Below are positions 30,481 to 40,399 of a stretch of DNA of 64,000 nucleotides, in pieces (the stretch's first letter is position 1; every line of letters starts with the position of its first letter). Position numbers and translations under genes: made by a program. The stretch lies in NCBI RefSeq assembly GCF_003790525.1, contig NZ_CP033635.1. The stretch is one strand, 5' to 3'. The notes below the pieces were generated by a model, which saw only the letters and a program-made list of their open reading frames with translations, searched no databases and was not told the DNA's origin. This DNA is from Escherichia coli. GTDB taxonomy: Bacteria; Pseudomonadota; Gammaproteobacteria; Enterobacterales; Enterobacteriaceae.

Positions 30481-30785
30481 TACTACCTGCGCTAGCGCAG
30501 GCCAGAAGAGGCGCGTTGCCCAAGTAACGGTGTTGGAGGAGCCAGTCCTGTGATAACACCTGAGGGGGTGCATCGCCGAGGTGATTGAACGGCTGGCCAC
30601 GTTCATCATCGGCTACAGGGGCTGAATCCCCTGGGTTGTCACCAGAAGCGTTCGCAGTCGGGCGTTTCGCAAGTGGTGGAGCACTTCTGGGTGAAAATAG
30701 TAGCGAAGTATCGCTCTGCGCCCACCCGTCTTCCGCTCTTCCCTTGTGCCAAGGCTGAAAATGGATCCCCTGACACGAGGTAGTT
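30481..30785 (+). ncRNA. lysC 5' leader containing a lysine riboswitch (L-box)
   Basis: About 300-nt leader between a TTGACA/TATAAA-like promoter (about 30445-30476) and the lysC ATG; contains conserved L-box strings AGAGGCGC, GGAGGA, CCGAGGUGAUUGAAC. Confidence 0.75.
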
Positions 30786-32660: not shown

Positions 32661-33533
32661 TTAACGTCCCTTCTTTTTTCGCCCCGGCGAGGTAAAACGC
32701 TTACCGTTGGACGCCGGGCGACCGCCTTTTTCCGCCGTTTTTTCCATCTTGACGACTGGACGTTTGATGCCTACCGTTTTCGGCTTGGCCTTCGCTTTAG
32801 GTTTTGCCTCGGAAGAGGAATTTTCGATGAGCTTAAAGAGGTCGATTAACTCATCGTCGGTTAAATCGCGCCACTCACCCAGCGGAATGCCGCTTAAACT
32901 GACGTTCATAATGCGCGTACGTTCCAGCTTTTTCACTTCGTAACCAAAGTGCTCGCACATGCGACGGATCTGACGGTTCAGCCCCTGCACCAGGGTAATG
33001 CGGAAGACAAACGGCGCTTCTTTTTTGACTTTGCACTTTTTCGTCACCGTCCCGAGGATCGGTACTCCCGCCCCCATACCACGAATAAATTCATCGGTAA
33101 TCGGTTTATCAACCGTCACCAGATACTCTTTCTCATGATCGTTACCCGCACGGAGGATCTTATTCACCAGATCGCCGTGATTGGTGAGGAAAATCAGCCC
33201 CTGGGAATCTTTATCCAGGCGGCCAATCGGGAACACGCGTTTGCTGTGGTTAACGAAATCGACAATGTTATCGCGCTCGCCATCTTCGGTGGTGCTGACA
33301 ATACCGACGGGCTTGTTCAGGGCGATAAGTACCAAATCTTCGGCTTCCCGAGGCTCAATCAACTGACCGTTTACTTTCACAACGTCGCCGGGTTTCACCT
33401 GATCGCCAATGGTGGCTCGCTTGCCATTAAGGAACACATTGCCTTGCTCGATATAGCGATCCGCTTCGCGGCGTGAGCAAATTCCGCTTTCGCTGATGTA
33501 TTTATTTAAACGGACTGATGAGTCGGGCAGCAT
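32661..33533 (-). CDS. rluF: 23S rRNA pseudouridine synthase F
   Basis: 290 aa with S4 domain and RsuA-family catalytic region ([10 protein letters not shown]); Lys-rich C-terminal tail. Confidence 0.93.
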
Positions 33534-33880
33534 AAATTCTCCTGTAAAACGCGGAATATACCGTACCTCTTAGCGGGGAAAAACAGGGTTATGCGGCAAC
33601 GTCGAAATTAAATGTGATCTGCCACGCCTTTTATCACAAAAGTGTCTCCGGAAGTACGATGCAAATTCGCCTGGCAAAATAAGGATAATCAACATATTAC
33701 GAATCGCTGCACACCTGTGCTGATGACTACTACGCAGAGAAACAAATGTGCAAGAGAAAGCGCTATTTCTCCCCATGCAAAGAGTGAAAAATCGCTTTGA
33801 AAGGCCATCATGATGGGGTTATATCAGATCAAGCGGTGAGAAAGCGTATTTGCACAAATGTGCAGAACCAGGAGGCGGCA

Positions 33881-34828
33881 ATGGAAAACAGTGACGATAT
33901 CCGTTTGATTGTGAAGATTGCCCAACTCTATTACGAACAGGATATGACGCAGGCGCAAATCGCGCGCGAACTGGGTATTTACCGCACCACCATCAGCCGC
34001 TTGCTTAAACGAGGCCGCGATCAGGGAATTGTCACCATCGCCATCAACTATGACTACAACGAAAATCTCTGGCTGGAGCAGCAACTGAAGCAAAAGTTTG
34101 GCCTGAAAGACGTTGTGGTGGTGTCGGGAAATGATGAGGATGAAGAGACTCAACTGGCGATGATGGGGTTACACGGCGCGCAACTGCTGGATCGCTTGCT
34201 GGAACCTGGCGATATTGTCGGTTTTTCCTGGGGCCGCGCGGTGAGCGCACTGGTTGAAAACTTGCCGCAGGCGGGGCAATCGCGGCAGTTAATTTGCGTG
34301 CCGATTATTGGCGGCCCGTCCGGTAAACTCGAAAGCCGCTATCACGTAAACACATTAACCTACAGCGCGGCAGCGAAGCTGAAAGGGGAATCGCATCTCG
34401 CGGATTTTCCGGCTCTGCTGGATAACCCATTAATTCGTAATGGGATCATGCAGTCTCAGCACTTTAAAACCATCTCTGCCTACTGGGATAATCTGGATGT
34501 CGCCCTGGTGGGAATTGGCTCACCGGCCATTCGCGACGGCGCTAACTGGCATGCGTTTTATGGTGGTGAAGAGAGTGACGACCTGAATGCCCGCCAGGTT
34601 GCTGGCGATATTTGCTCGCGCTTTTTTGATATTCACGGCGCAATGGTTGAAACGAATATGAGCGAAAAAACACTCTCTATCGAAATGAATAAATTAAAGC
34701 AGGCACGGTATTCCATTGGCATTGCCATGAGCGAAGAAAAATACAGCGGAATTGTTGGTGCACTGCGTGGAAAATATATTAATTGTCTGGTAACGAATAG
34801 CAGCACAGCTGAACTATTACTGAAATAA
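33881..34828 (+). CDS. sorC: sorbose operon transcriptional regulator (SorC family)
   Basis: Track ORF trimmed to MENSDDIRLIVKIAQLYYEQDMTQAQIARELGIYRTTISRLL (HTH) preceded by RBS aggagg; 315 aa; sugar-phosphate-binding C-terminal domain. Confidence 0.8.
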   Translation: MENSDDIRLIVKIAQLYYEQDMTQAQIARELGIYRTTISRLLKRGRDQGIVTIAINYDYNENLWLEQQLKQKFGLKDVVVVSGNDEDEETQLAMMGLHGAQLLDRLLEPGDIVGFSWGRAVSALVENLPQAGQSRQLICVPIIGGPSGKLESRYHVNTLTYSAAAKLKGESHLADFPALLDNPLIRNGIMQSQHFKTISAYWDNLDVALVGIGSPAIRDGANWHAFYGGEESDDLNARQVAGDICSRFFDIHGAMVETNMSEKTLSIEMNKLKQARYSIGIAMSEEKYSGIVGALRGKYINCLVTNSSTAELLLK

Positions 34829-38364: not shown

Positions 38365-39594
38365 ATGAAAACAACAGCTCTGCGTCTTTATGGCAAACGT
38401 GACCTGCGTCTGGAAACCTTTGACCTTCCTGAAATGCAGGAGGATGAAATCCTCGCGACGGTGGTCACTGACAGCCTGTGCCTCTCTTCCTGGAAAGAGG
38501 CCAATCTGGGGGAAAACCATAAAAAAGTACCCGACGATGTGGCGACCAATCCCATCATCATCGGCCACGAATTTTGCGGCGATATTCTGGCCGTGGGTAA
38601 AAAGTGGCAGCACAAATTCCAGCCGGGTCAGCGTTATGTGATTCAGGCCAACCTGCAACTCCCCGACCGCCCGGACTGCCCCGGCTACTCCTTCCCGTGG
38701 GTAGGCGGCGAAGCGACGCATGTGGTTATTCCCAACGAGGTCATGGAACAAGATTGCCTGCTGGCATACGACGGCGAAACCTATTTTGAAGGCTCGCTGG
38801 TTGAACCGCTTTCCTGCGTGATTGGCGCGTTCAACGCCAACTATCATCTTCAGGAAGGTAGTTATAACCACACGATGGGGATTCGCCCGCAAGGGCGCAC
38901 GCTGATCCTCGGCGGCACCGGACCAATGGGACTGTTGGCGATTGATTATGCGCTGCATGGACCCGTTAACCCGTCGCTGCTCGTTATTACCGATACCGAC
39001 AACGACAAATTGAGTTATGCGCGCAAGCACTATCCATCAGAACCGCAAACACTGATTCATTATCTCAATGCCACCGATGCAGCATTTGATACGTTAATGG
39101 CGCTGAGTGGCGGTCACGGCTTCGATGATATTTTCGTCTTTGTGCCTAATGAAGGACTGGTGACTCTCGCCTCTTCCTTGCTGGCGACAGATGGTTGCCT
39201 GAATTTCTTCGCCGGACCGCAGGATAAACATTTCAGCGCGCCAATTAATTTCTACGATGTGCATTATGCATTTACCCACTACGTGGGCACGTCAGGCGGC
39301 AATACCGACGACATGCGCGCGGCGGTCAAACTGATCGAAGAGAAAAAAGTGCAGGCCGCAAAAGTGGTAACACATATTCTTGGGCTGAATGCCGCGGGCG
39401 AAACCACGCTTGAATTGCCTGCCGTCGGCGGCGGGAAAAAACTGGTGTATACCGGGAAATATCTGCCGCTGACATCACTCACGCAGATTCAGGATGAAGA
39501 ACTGGCGGCGATTCTGGCGCGTCATCAGGGAGTCTGGTCCGGCGAGGCGGAGCAGTACCTGCTCGCCCATGCAGAGGCGATTTCCCATGATTAA
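38365..39594 (+). CDS. sorE: L-sorbose-1-phosphate reductase (zinc-type alcohol dehydrogenase family)
   Basis: Trimmed to MKTTALRLYGKRDLRLETF (409 aa); MDR zinc-ligand region GHEFCGDIL. Confidence 0.75.
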   Translation: MKTTALRLYGKRDLRLETFDLPEMQEDEILATVVTDSLCLSSWKEANLGENHKKVPDDVATNPIIIGHEFCGDILAVGKKWQHKFQPGQRYVIQANLQLPDRPDCPGYSFPWVGGEATHVVIPNEVMEQDCLLAYDGETYFEGSLVEPLSCVIGAFNANYHLQEGSYNHTMGIRPQGRTLILGGTGPMGLLAIDYALHGPVNPSLLVITDTDNDKLSYARKHYPSEPQTLIHYLNATDAAFDTLMALSGGHGFDDIFVFVPNEGLVTLASSLLATDGCLNFFAGPQDKHFSAPINFYDVHYAFTHYVGTSGGNTDDMRAAVKLIEEKKVQAAKVVTHILGLNAAGETTLELPAVGGGKKLVYTGKYLPLTSLTQIQDEELAAILARHQGVWSGEAEQYLLAHAEAISHD

Positions 39595-40399
39595 TCGCGA
39601 TACTCAACTCTGCATGTCGCTGGCCGGCCGCCCCGGTAACTTCGGCACGCGTTTTCACAATTATCTTTATGAAAAGCTGGGGCTGAATTTCATCTATAAA
39701 GCGTTCACCACCCAGGATATTGCAGCGGCGGTGAAAGGGATTCGCGCGTTGGGTATTCGCGGTTGCGCTGTGTCGATGCCGTTTAAAGAAAGCTGCATGC
39801 CTTTTCTCGACGCGATCGATCCGTCGGCGAAGGTCATTGATTCCGTGAATACCATCGTGAATGACGACGGCAGGCTGACCGGGTTTAACACCGACTATAT
39901 CGCGGTGAAAAGCCTGATTACCCACCACCAGCTCAATACCACCACGCGAGTGATGATTCGCGGCAGTGGCGGCATGGGCAAAGCGGTGATTGCCGCCTTT
40001 CGCGACGCGGGGTTTACGGATGTTATCATTGCCGCCCGCAACCGCGAGAGCGGCCCGGCGCTGGCGAAGCAGTATGGGTTTCAGTGGCAACCGCAGCCGG
40101 AAGGCATCGCCTGCGACATTCTGGTCAACGTGACGCCCGTTGGCATGAGCGGCGGTAAAGAGAGCCATGAGCTGGCCTTCAGCGAAGCGATGGTCTCAAC
40201 GGCAAGCGTCGTTTTTGATGTCGTGGCCTTGCCGCCGGAAACGCCGCTCATTCGCCTGGCGCAACGGCTTGATAAGCAGACGATTAGCGGTGCGGAGGTG
40301 ATTGCTTTACAGGCCGTCGAGCAGTTCGCAATGTATACCGGCGTACGGCCTGATGCGCAACTGATTGCTGAGGCGGCACAATTTGCACGAGAAGGATAA
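39587..40399 (+). CDS. shikimate/quinate 5-dehydrogenase-like protein (AroE/YdiB family), eighth gene of the sor cluster
   Basis: 270 aa; start overlaps the sorE stop (ATGATTAA); AroE-like motifs: N-terminal substrate region, SMPFKE (catalytic Lys), NTD (catalytic Asp), Gly-rich Rossmann GSGGMGKA. Confidence 0.7.
   Translation: MINRDTQLCMSLAGRPGNFGTRFHNYLYEKLGLNFIYKAFTTQDIAAAVKGIRALGIRGCAVSMPFKESCMPFLDAIDPSAKVIDSVNTIVNDDGRLTGFNTDYIAVKSLITHHQLNTTTRVMIRGSGGMGKAVIAAFRDAGFTDVIIAARNRESGPALAKQYGFQWQPQPEGIACDILVNVTPVGMSGGKESHELAFSEAMVSTASVVFDVVALPPETPLIRLAQRLDKQTISGAEVIALQAVEQFAMYTGVRPDAQLIAEAAQFAREG

What the first reader, a model, noticed from the sequence alone, without database searches (positions are those of the whole stretch)
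33743..33864. Perfect palindrome TGCACAAATGTGCA 17 bp upstream of the sorC start codon, plus a second AAATGTGCA copy about 110 bp upstream
A 14-bp perfect palindrome at 33851-33864 sits between the likely promoter and the sorC RBS, and the half-site CAAATGTGCAAG recurs at 33743-33754. This is a good candidate operator for autoregulation by SorC or for another regulator; I am not aware that it is annotated.
Basis: seen in the sequence. Interest (0 to 1): 0.35.

Follow-up and report, generated by a model that had tools for sequence, protein, structure and literature searches.

The report
Predicted SorC operator boxes, sorbose operon
The short inverted repeat just upstream of the E. coli sorbose-operon regulator gene sorC is very probably the main DNA site where SorC binds its own operon, one of three or four such boxes held at fixed distances around the promoter; this is a useful but unsurprising result, and binding itself was not tested.

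Summary
The sequence is at the stated coordinates, but it is not a perfect palindrome. It has 6-bp arms around a non-symmetric AA (TGCACA-AA-TGTGCA). On its own it is not beyond chance: the window holds 20 such repeats.

Three things make it real:
- **More copies.** There is also a half-box (33742-33753) and a weak box (33633-33646).
- **Conservation.** In 27 enterobacterial sorC loci the proximal box is the most conserved 14 bp of the region. The core GCACA-N3-GTGC occurs 53 times, always within 320 bp upstream of sorC and never elsewhere in 231 kb. Box spacings of 31, 112 and 143 bp are essentially invariant.
- **Link to the protein.** SorC homologues with the same or a similar recognition helix, in Firmicutes and in metagenomes, carry the same box upstream of their own genes. 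The 16-mer TTGCACAAATGTGCAA matches the crystallised B. subtilis DeoR half-operator TTGAACAAAATTTCAA at 12 of 16 positions.

Best reading: a SorC operator at about +19 to +33 of a predicted promoter, cooperating with the upstream boxes, probably through a DNA loop held by tetrameric SorC. I found no description of it in the papers I could search, and RefSeq annotates nothing there. It is a new member of a known kind, of moderate interest.

The parts
33850..33865 (.). S4, the proximal SorC box (the finding). The 16-mer is TTGCACAAATGTGCAG and the 14-mer core is 33851-33864. Predicted position is about +19 to +33, in the 5' untranslated region.
   Evidence: Sequence. It is the most conserved 14-bp window of -290..+60 (mean column identity 0.997). 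It is invariant in 25 of the 27 related loci; the two Kluyvera loci have TGCACATATGTGCA.
33707..33722 (.). S2, the distal full SorC box: CTGCACACCTGTGCTG, centred 143 bp upstream of S4.
   Evidence: 1 mismatch to TGCACANNTGTGCA. The arms GCACA/GTGC are kept at the same position in 23 of 25 non-Kluyvera loci while the central 3 nt vary.
33738..33753 (.). S3, a half-box. The right arm plus centre, CAAATGTGCAA, is conserved and the left arm is not. It lies 31 bp from S2 and 112 bp from S4.
   Evidence: Exact 11-mer repeat. CAAATGTGCAA is invariant or nearly so in the alignment. Spacing is constant. In Kluyvera it is a full box, TTGCACAAACGTGCAA.
33632..33647 (.). S1, a possible weak fourth box: TATCACAAAAGTGTCT with core CACAAAAGTG. 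It lies 75 bp upstream of S2 in this window and 76 bp in most other loci.
   Evidence: CACAAAAGTG is conserved across genera. It matches only 8 of 14 specified positions, so the assignment is tentative.
33797..33825 (+). Predicted sigma-70 promoter of sorCDFBAME: -35 TTGAAA (33797-33802), 17-bp spacer, -10 TATATC (33820-33825). The inferred transcription start is about 33832.
   Evidence: It is the best-scoring promoter in the window, and its -10 position is among the top six predictions in 21 of 26 sequences. The block GGTTATATCAGATCA is nearly invariant. It is not listed by the stricter consensus scan. The start site was not determined experimentally.
33870..33883 (+). Shine-Dalgarno AGGAGG (33870-33875) and the sorC start codon ATG (33881-33883).
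   Evidence: Sequence. The RefSeq CDS start and the full-length match to PDB 2W48 from residue 1.
33881..34828 (+). sorC, a SorC-family regulator with an N-terminal helix-turn-helix domain and a sugar-binding domain. It is the first gene of the operon.
   Evidence: Pfam Sugar-bind 1.4e-80 plus HTH matches. PDB 2W48 1.9e-183. Recognition helix GIYRTTISRLLKRG.
33610..33631 (.). CRP-like site with a perfect left half, AAATGTGATCT, and a poor right half. It belongs to the sor regulatory region, but its role and partner promoter are unclear.
   Evidence: TGTGATC is invariant or nearly so, including in loci where rluF is not the neighbour. The match to the CRP consensus is judged from memory of that consensus and was not scored.

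Best explanation
The element is the promoter-proximal, best-matching operator of SorC, the regulator encoded by the first gene of the sorCDFBAME operon.

**The box.** The SorC box has the consensus TTGCACA-AA-TGTGCAA. One dimer of SorC DNA-binding domains would bind it, as B. subtilis DeoR binds TTGAACA-AA-ATTTCAA.

**The array.** The E. coli regulatory region carries these boxes, with positions counted from the predicted transcription start:

| Box | Type | Centre |
|---|---|---|
| S4 | full | about +26 |
| S2 | full | about -117 |
| S3 | half | about -86 |
| S1 | weak | about -192 |

**Without sorbose (inferred).** Tetrameric SorC, a dimer of dimers, holds S4 with one DNA-binding pair and an upstream box (S3 or S2) with the other. 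This loops out the promoter and represses the whole operon, sorC included.

**With inducer (inferred).** The bridging is lost. SorC stays on the upstream S2-S3 pair and helps RNA polymerase, which would account for the activator role reported for SorC.

**What is shown:** the boxes, their conservation, their fixed spacing, and their association with SorC-type DNA-binding domains.

**What is inferred:** binding by SorC (my confidence about 0.8), the position of the transcription start (about 0.6), and looping plus the switch to activation (about 0.4). The overall confidence given for this explanation (0.55) is for the whole statement taken together.
For: **Conservation.** S4 is the most conserved 14-mer of the region, more so than the start of the coding sequence, while its flanks diverge.

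**Specificity.** The core GCACA-N3-GTGC occurs 53 times in 231 kb of 27 loci. All 53 lie within 320 bp upstream of sorC and none elsewhere. In the 64-kb window the only two hits with at most 1 mismatch are S2 and S4.

**Binding-site signature.** In S2 the arms are invariant and the centre is free (CCT, TCT, TTT, TAT, AAC, AAG, AAA, AAT).

**Link to the protein.**
- Three Firmicute homologues (43-48% identity, identical helix GIYRTTISR) each have a box with at most 1 mismatch upstream of their own gene. A second box or half-box lies 19-20 bp away and none elsewhere in the roughly 9-kb locus. Their neighbours are not sorbose genes.
- Among 120 metagenome stretches with the exact 15-mer, two (L062, L146) have it less than 110 bp upstream of distant SorC-family genes. 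A third (L058) has three clustered boxes 1.8 kb upstream of another.
- 12 of 14 family members with other recognition helices have no box.

**Homology of site and protein.**
- The DeoR half-operator TTGAACAAAATTTCAA, whose base-specific contacts lie in TTGAACA, matches the SorC 16-mer at 12 of 16 positions by direct comparison.
- The DeoR and SorC DNA-binding domains are 48% identical.
- DeoR R39, which contacts the G of TTG, aligns with SorC R35.

**Oligomer.** SorC crystallised as a tetramer with two separated DNA-binding pairs (PMC2943609). Family tetramers bind two half-operators (PMC11229326).

**Spacing.** S2-S3 is 31 bp in every non-Kluyvera locus where S3 was placed correctly (the scan mis-placed it in one, L005). 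S3-S4 is 112 bp there too, with Serratia at 113. S2-S4 is 143 bp in all 26 non-Kluyvera sequences except Serratia (144). In Kluyvera S3-S4 is 101 bp, which is 112 minus 11, about one helical turn.

**Autoregulation and dual role.** sorC transcript is induced by sorbose, and SorC is described as an activator with sorbose and a repressor without it (PMC12817954).
Against: - No binding or expression experiment is available. I could not read the original K. pneumoniae papers.
- The transcription start is only predicted. The -10 TATATC lacks the usual final T and the stricter scan lists no promoter.
- S4 has no partner box at the roughly two-turn distance (19-22 bp) seen for DeoR, CggR and the Firmicute homologues. 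The closest pair, S2-S3, is 31 bp apart.
- 143 bp is 13.6 turns at 10.5 bp per turn. It is integral only at about 11 bp per turn, so the phasing argument is soft.
- The invariant spacing could simply reflect several independently constrained elements.
- Box centres at about -86 and -117 are far upstream for direct activation.
- The Kluyvera 11-bp change is a single evolutionary event.
Confidence: 0.55

Rival explanations
1. The boxes are SorC sites but act independently, without a loop. S4 is a simple downstream roadblock or promoter-clearance operator for autorepression. S2-S3 is a separate composite operator (a palindrome plus a half-site repeat, as in B. subtilis DeoR) used only for sorbose-dependent activation.
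For: S2 plus S3 resembles the DeoR layout of a palindrome plus a direct half-site repeat, with one extra helical turn: 31 bp against the 19-20 bp in Firmicute homologues. 143 bp is not an integral number of turns at 10.5 bp per turn. A 2010 paper proposed that SorC activates as a dimer and represses as a compact tetramer, without invoking long-range loops.
Against: A lone palindrome binds one dimer only. For DeoR, isolated half-operators showed no stable binding in solution. S4 has no neighbour box within about two turns. The reduced Kluyvera locus keeps exactly two full boxes 101 bp apart. The strict spacing across genera is easier to explain if the boxes must cooperate.
Confidence: 0.3
2. 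The boxes are bound by a regulator other than SorC, for example a global or sugar-specific factor encoded elsewhere. The association with sorC is only positional.
For: No binding data exist. The region also carries other conserved blocks of unknown function and a CRP-like half-site, so other proteins certainly act here.
Against: The box co-occurs with SorC-type genes in Firmicutes and in unrelated metagenomic lineages whose neighbouring genes differ. It is absent upstream of most family members with different recognition helices. It matches the DeoR half-operator in length, symmetry and 12 of 16 bases. It does not fit CRP (TGTGA-N6-TCACA) or FNR (TTGAT-N4-ATCAA), whose consensus sequences I recall from memory.
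Confidence: 0.08
3. The proximal element acts as an RNA hairpin in the sorC 5' untranslated region, affecting mRNA stability or translation next to the Shine-Dalgarno sequence, rather than as a DNA site.
For: If the predicted promoter is right, S4 is transcribed. The minimum-free-energy fold contains the hairpin, and it abuts the ribosome-binding site.
Against: The fold is no more stable than shuffled sequences (z = -0.85). There is no Rfam match. The sequence is invariant rather than changing by compensatory substitutions. The same box recurs upstream of the promoter, once as a half-site that cannot form a hairpin. A hairpin role could still coexist with protein binding.
Confidence: 0.05
4. 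It is a chance inverted repeat with no function.
For: The window has 20 perfect 6+2+6 inverted repeats, about what base odds predict.
Against: The box is invariant across genera while its flanks diverge. There are 53 of 53 core matches upstream of sorC and none in the remaining sequence. The box recurs with homologous regulators in other phyla.
Confidence: 0.01

Closest known systems
Left half-operator (OL) of Bacillus subtilis DeoR, SorC/DeoR subfamily: TTGAACAAAATTTCAA, crystallised with DeoR (PDB 8R7Y, 7BHY; PMC11229326)
   Same: - The regulators are homologous: both have the SorC-family sugar-binding domain and an HTH DNA-binding domain that is 48% identical.
- Both sites are 16 bp with two-fold symmetry, and 12 of 16 bases are identical. 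This includes TTG and ACA in the arm where DeoR makes its base contacts.
- The arginine that contacts the G (DeoR R39) aligns with SorC R35.
- In both, a full palindrome is accompanied by a half-site repeat.
   Different: - Position 4 of the arm is C in SorC (TTGCACA) and A in DeoR (TTGAACA). The SorC arms are more perfectly symmetric.
- The two DeoR half-operators form one 39-bp operator that overlaps the -35. In E. coli the nearest boxes are 31 bp apart, and the best box stands alone 112 and 143 bp from the others, downstream of the predicted start.
- DeoR is described as a repressor. SorC is reported to be both a repressor and an activator.
Loop-forming multi-operator systems: lac O1/O3 with tetrameric LacI, araBAD O2/I1 with AraC, gal OE/OI with GalR (from established knowledge, not tested here)
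   Same: There is a strong operator just downstream of the start plus auxiliary operators roughly 90-220 bp upstream. The regulator has two separate DNA-binding units (the SorC tetramer). Operator spacing is fixed across genera. As with AraC, one protein both represses and activates the same promoter, and a CRP-like site lies in the same region.
   Different: The protein family and box sequence differ. Looping is only inferred here. There is no evidence yet that repression depends on helical phase, and the effector-driven switch is unknown.
E. coli LsrR boxes in the lsrR-lsrA intergenic region (SorC/DeoR subfamily; PMC5137460)
   Same: The regulator is a paralogue in the same organism, also tetrameric and also solved as a full-length structure. 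Its sites lie in the regulatory region of its own locus, alongside CRP sites.
   Different: The reported LsrR box elements (AACAAT ... AAGATTTAA) do not resemble the SorC box. The LsrR recognition helix differs: LTRLKVSRLL against IYRTTISRLL.

Membership tests
SorC/DeoR-subfamily operator (as defined for B. subtilis DeoR) | A cognate SorC-family regulator with an N-terminal HTH domain is encoded at the locus. | tested here: met
   Pfam Sugar-bind 1.4e-80 plus HTH matches. 2W48 at 1.9e-183, DeoR 8R7Y at 4.3e-40. DNA-binding domain alignment.
SorC/DeoR-subfamily operator (as defined for B. subtilis DeoR) | A palindromic half-operator of about 16 bp with TTGnACA-type arms, sized for one dimer of DNA-binding domains. 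| tested here: met
   TTGCACAAATGTGCA(G/A) against TTGAACAAAATTTCAA gives 12 of 16 identical over the same length (sequence; DeoR sequence).
SorC/DeoR-subfamily operator (as defined for B. subtilis DeoR) | A second half-operator about two helical turns away, so that one tetramer covers a contiguous operator of about 40 bp. | tested here: not met
   No box-like or conserved partner lies within 19-22 bp either side of S4. The nearest pair, S2-S3, is 31 bp apart. The feature is met in homologous Firmicute and metagenome loci at 19-20 bp.
SorC/DeoR-subfamily operator (as defined for B. subtilis DeoR) | The site co-occurs with regulators that share the recognition helix and is absent where the helix differs. 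| tested here: met
   27 enterobacterial, 3 Firmicute and 2-3 metagenomic loci carry the box. 12 of 14 homologues with a divergent helix lack it.
SorC/DeoR-subfamily operator (as defined for B. subtilis DeoR) | Specific binding by the regulator, modulated by its sugar or sugar-phosphate effector. | not testable with these tools
   This needs EMSA or footprinting. No published data turned up in the searchable library.
Loop-forming multi-operator repression (LacI, AraC or GalR type) | Two or more operators for one regulator, tens to hundreds of bp apart, bracketing the promoter. | tested here: met
   S2 and S3 lie upstream and S4 downstream of the predicted promoter. The promoter position is itself a prediction.
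Loop-forming multi-operator repression (LacI, AraC or GalR type) | A regulator oligomer with two independent DNA-binding units. | not tested
   Taken from the literature: the SorC tetramer is a dimer of dimers whose DNA-binding domains protrude on each side (PMC2943609; PMC11229326).
Loop-forming multi-operator repression (LacI, AraC or GalR type) | Operator spacing is constrained to keep helical phase. | tested here: inconclusive
   Spacing is invariant at 143, 112 and 31 bp, and the single natural length variant differs by 11 bp. However, 143 bp is integral only at about 11 bp per turn, and there is only one informative indel.
CRP or FNR site | TGTGA-N6-TCACA or TTGAT-N4-ATCAA. | tested here: not met
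   In S4 the arms are in the opposite order (GCACA..TGTGC) with a 2-bp centre. The consensus sequences are from memory.
Structured cis-regulatory RNA | A match to a known family, or a fold supported by stability and covariation. | tested here: not met
   Only one chance-level Rfam match in the region (sR28, E = 0.96, far below its gathering score, not at the box). Fold z = -0.85. The sequence is invariant with no compensatory changes.

The most novel reading that the evidence does not exclude
SorC, the founding member of its family, may not use the compact two-turn tandem operator of DeoR and CggR. Instead it would use a dispersed array of boxes at +26, -86, -117 and perhaps -192, held at fixed spacing. 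The tetramer would loop out its own promoter without sorbose and act as an upstream-bound activator with sorbose, an AraC- or LacI-like switch built on a SorC-family scaffold. In addition, the same box (GCACA-N2-4-TGTGC) would be the shared operator of a wide clade of SorC/DeoR-type regulators, spanning Proteobacteria, Firmicutes and GC-rich uncultured lineages, that control different sugar pathways.
Probability: 0.35. Interest if true: 0.5.

Novelty: new member of a known kind. Interest (0 to 1): 0.38.

Why it matters
SorC gives its name to a large family of sugar-responsive regulators; the 2024 paper counts 8942 InterPro entries with that architecture. A 2010 paper still named B. subtilis DeoR as the only member other than CggR with an identified DNA site. 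A full-length SorC crystal structure has existed since 2009.

A defined box and a map of its copies give a concrete way to test how one protein both represses and activates the sor operon, a question open since 1990. They also allow SorC-DNA structural work.

The sor operon is carried by about half of complete E. coli genomes (2866 of 5426). Recent work links it to fitness in high-risk clones (PMC12817954; PMC13410766, abstract listed). Knowing its control region therefore has some practical value, including as a sorbose-inducible expression switch.

Tried and rejected
- **Perfect palindrome:** rejected. The centre AA is not symmetric.
- **Chance repeat:** rejected on conservation and specificity.
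- **Conserved blocks belong to the divergent rluF promoter:** rejected. They persist in Serratia, Pantoea and Entomohabitans loci where rluF is not the neighbour.
- **RNA element:** only one chance-level Rfam match (sR28, E = 0.96, not at the box), an unremarkable fold and no covariation.
- **CRP, FNR or sigma-54 readings of S4:** the arm order and spacing do not fit (by inspection; consensus sequences from memory).
- **Partner half-box 19-22 bp or 31 bp from S4:** none found. The sequence there is either variable or is the -10 block.
- **Alternative upstream promoter (GATAAT at 33685-33690) that would place S2 at about +17:** no usable -35, and it is rarely among the top predictions across species. 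Not excluded.
- **Inverted-repeat search with a 6-nt seed in the Firmicute loci:** found nothing. Mismatch-tolerant scans then found the boxes.
- **Original papers (Wöhrl 1990; de Sanctis 2009):** not held in the library.
- **Variation within E. coli:** too small to be informative; identity is about 98% or more in nearly all genomes.
- **Metagenome scan for the exact 15-mer:** mostly chance hits, as expected for a collection of that size. Only the hits next to SorC-family genes were used.

Full report
**Context.** The window is E. coli, 100% identical to strain SMS-3-5 over the queried 1.5 kb. The finding lies in the 347-bp intergenic region between rluF (minus strand, start at 33533) and sorC (33881-34828). 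sorC is the first gene of sorCDFBAME, which is followed by a shikimate-dehydrogenase-like gene. The sorC product has 315 residues and matches K. pneumoniae SorC (PDB 2W48) at E = 1.9e-183. Its first 77 residues differ from 2W48 at only two conservative positions.

**The observation.**
- TGCACAAATGTGCA is at 33851-33864. Sixteen nucleotides separate it from the ATG, and these include the Shine-Dalgarno AGGAGG.
- It is not a perfect palindrome. The arms TGCACA and TGTGCA are exactly complementary, but the central AA is not self-complementary. The element is absent from the window's eight true 14-bp palindromes.
- The upstream copy shares the 11-mer ACAAATGTGCA (33742-33752), 112 bp away.
- A single 6+2+6 inverted repeat is not remarkable: the window has 20. 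Two matches with at most 1 mismatch compare with 0.25 expected, and the duplicated 11-mer with 0.05 expected. At up to 3 mismatches the window as a whole has fewer matches than shuffles do (14 against 36), yet three of them cluster upstream of sorC.

**Conservation.** A genome-collection scan with SorC returned 27 enterobacterial loci. They come from E. coli-like lineages, Pseudocitrobacter, Citrobacter, Klebsiella, Raoultella, Mangrovibacter, Serratia, Pantoea, Cedecea, Entomohabitans, Enterobacter and Kluyvera.
- The proximal box is identical in 25 of the 27 loci, while the sequence on both sides diverges. The two Kluyvera loci have TGCACATATGTGCA, which is a perfect palindrome.
- In an alignment of -290 to +60, the 14-bp window starting at 33851 has the highest mean column identity, 0.997. 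That is above the start of the coding sequence.
- The core GCACA-N3-GTGC occurs 53 times in the 231 kb of these loci, every time within 320 bp upstream of sorC.
- In the distal box S2 the arms are constant and the three central bases vary freely. That is the pattern expected of a protein-contacted inverted repeat.
- In S3 only the right arm and centre (CAAATGTGCAA) are conserved.
- A weaker fourth block, CACAAAAGTG at 33635-33644, is also conserved.
- Spacing is essentially invariant. S2-S3 is 31 bp, S3-S4 is 112 bp and S2-S4 is 143 bp. Serratia is longer by 1 bp. In Kluyvera the upstream box is a full palindrome and S3-S4 is 101 bp, which is 11 bp shorter.
- These blocks persist where rluF is not the neighbour, so they belong to the sor operon.

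**Which protein binds.** Four lines of evidence point to SorC.
1. Three Firmicute homologues share 43-48% identity and the identical recognition helix GIYRTTISR. Each has a box with at most 1 mismatch upstream of its own gene: TGCACAATTGTGCT in two and TGTACATTTGTGCA in the third. A second box or half-box lies 19-20 bp away, and there are no further matches in the roughly 9-kb locus. Their neighbouring genes are RpiA-like and GFO/IDH/MocA enzymes, not sorbose genes.
2. A metagenome scan for the exact 15-mer gave 120 stretches.
   - Most are expected to be chance hits.
   - Five are E. coli-type sor loci.
   - Two (L062, L146) carry the 15-mer less than 110 bp upstream of distant SorC-family genes (26% identity, helix TSRSTVSRLL).
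   - One (L058) has three clustered boxes, 20 and 45 bp apart, upstream of another.
3. Of 14 more distant family members with different recognition helices, 12 have no box anywhere in the locus.
4. The B. subtilis DeoR left half-operator, crystallised with the protein, is TTGAACAAAATTTCAA, and its base-specific contacts lie in TTGAACA. The SorC 16-mer TTGCACAAATGTGCAA has the same length and symmetry and 12 of 16 identical bases. The two DNA-binding domains are 48% identical. DeoR R39, which contacts the G, aligns with SorC R35.

**Promoter.**
- A simple weight-matrix scan places TTGAAA-17-TATATC (-10 at 33820-33825) as the best promoter in the window. The same -10 position is among the top six predictions in 21 of 26 sequences.
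- The block GGTTATATCAGATCA is almost invariant.
- The stricter consensus scan lists nothing, because the -10 ends in C. That fits an activator-dependent promoter.
- With a start near 33832, S4 lies at about +19 to +33. S3 is centred near -86, S2 near -117 and S1 near -192.
- This is inference. No start-site data were available.

**Mechanism.**
- Published work describes SorC as a repressor without sorbose and an activator with it, and shows the sorC transcript to be sorbose-induced (PMC12817954).
- It also describes SorC as a tetramer whose two pairs of DNA-binding domains point away from the core (PMC2943609).
- Family tetramers bind two half-operators, and isolated DeoR half-operators bind poorly (PMC11229326).
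- S4 has no partner within about two turns. I therefore favour a bridge between S4 and an upstream box, enclosing the promoter in a loop of 112 or 143 bp, for repression. Inducer would release the bridge, and SorC would remain on S2-S3 to activate.
- Support comes from the invariant spacing and the 11-bp step in Kluyvera. Both are also compatible with independent action of the boxes, which I keep as the main rival.
- I put binding by SorC at about 0.8 and the loop at about 0.4.

**Alternatives.**
- *Another regulator:* unlikely, given the co-occurrence with SorC-type domains across phyla.
- *An RNA hairpin:* the hairpin is possible, but it is not supported by Rfam (one chance-level match, E = 0.96), by stability (z = -0.85) or by the pattern of conservation. 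It also cannot explain the upstream copies.
- *A CRP or FNR site:* the arms do not fit either consensus.

**Novelty.**
- The 2010 paper names B. subtilis DeoR as the only member of the family other than CggR with an identified DNA site.
- The 2024 structural paper treats SorC only as a structure.
- Full-text searches for the sequence, and for SorC together with operator, motif or regulon terms, found nothing.
- RefSeq annotates no feature under 33700-33880 in any of the 30 E. coli records listed, out of 2866 genomes that carry the region.
- I could not read the original K. pneumoniae papers or RegPrecise, so an earlier mention cannot be excluded.
- This is a predicted operator for a known regulator, with the geometry of a known relative: a new member of a known kind. 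The dispersed, fixed-spacing layout is the part that differs from DeoR and CggR, and it is what gives the finding its moderate interest.

Noticed in passing
window 33610-33631: This is a CRP-like site with a perfect left half (AAATGTGATCT) and a poor right half. TGTGATC is invariant or nearly so across genera, including loci without rluF. It lies about 211 bp upstream of the predicted start, too far for ordinary CRP activation of that promoter, so its partner promoter or role is unclear.
   Followed up: partly
window 33615-33618 and 33827-33830: Two near-invariant GATC (Dam methylation) sites sit inside the two best-conserved blocks that are not SorC boxes: TGTGATC, and CAGATCA directly after the predicted -10. 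This may be coincidence, or a sign of methylation-sensitive control.
   Followed up: no
window 33661-33700: There are conserved blocks of unknown function: GCAAnTTyGCC (33661-33671) and GAATCA...ATTA (33686-33700). The centre of the second lies about 22 bp upstream of the S2 centre, the distance between DeoR half-operators, but its sequence does not resemble a SorC box.
   Followed up: partly
window 33785-33791: A conserved A-tract (GAAAAAT) lies just upstream of the predicted -35, at about -47 to -41. This is where a proximal UP element would sit.
   Followed up: no
L023 3870-3986 and L024 (Kluyvera): This is a reduced locus: rluF, a sorC-like gene (70% identity), a shikimate-dehydrogenase-like gene, then pepE. 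sorDFBAME is missing. It still keeps two full boxes, TTGCACAAACGTGCAA and TTGCACATATGTGCAG, 101 bp apart, together with the promoter block.
   Followed up: partly
L028 3950-3990; L027 3820-3860; L029 3880-3920: Firmicute SorC homologues next to RpiA-like and GFO/IDH/MocA oxidoreductase genes have tandem boxes 19-20 bp apart. In L027 these flank an extended -10 (TGATATAAT). This suggests a classical DeoR-type repressor operator for an unknown sugar pathway.
   Followed up: partly
L062 395-409; L146 (reverse-complement coordinates) 9946 and 10020; L058 (reverse-complement coordinates) 4382-4460: GC-rich metagenomic contigs carry the exact E. coli 15-mer upstream of SorC-family genes that are only 26-32% identical to SorC. 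The box therefore appears to be shared by a wide clade of regulators.
   Followed up: partly
L022 (Entomohabitans), -304 relative to the sorC ATG: There is an extra box, AGCACATCCGTGCA, 129 bp upstream of the S2 equivalent. It is not present in the other genera.
   Followed up: no
window 39494-40399: A shikimate-dehydrogenase-like gene lies immediately after sorE and overlaps its end. [quoted passage not shown]
   Followed up: no
window about 30498-30694: The RefSeq record annotates a lysine riboswitch upstream of lysC (converted from L001 coordinates). It is unrelated to the finding.
   Followed up: no
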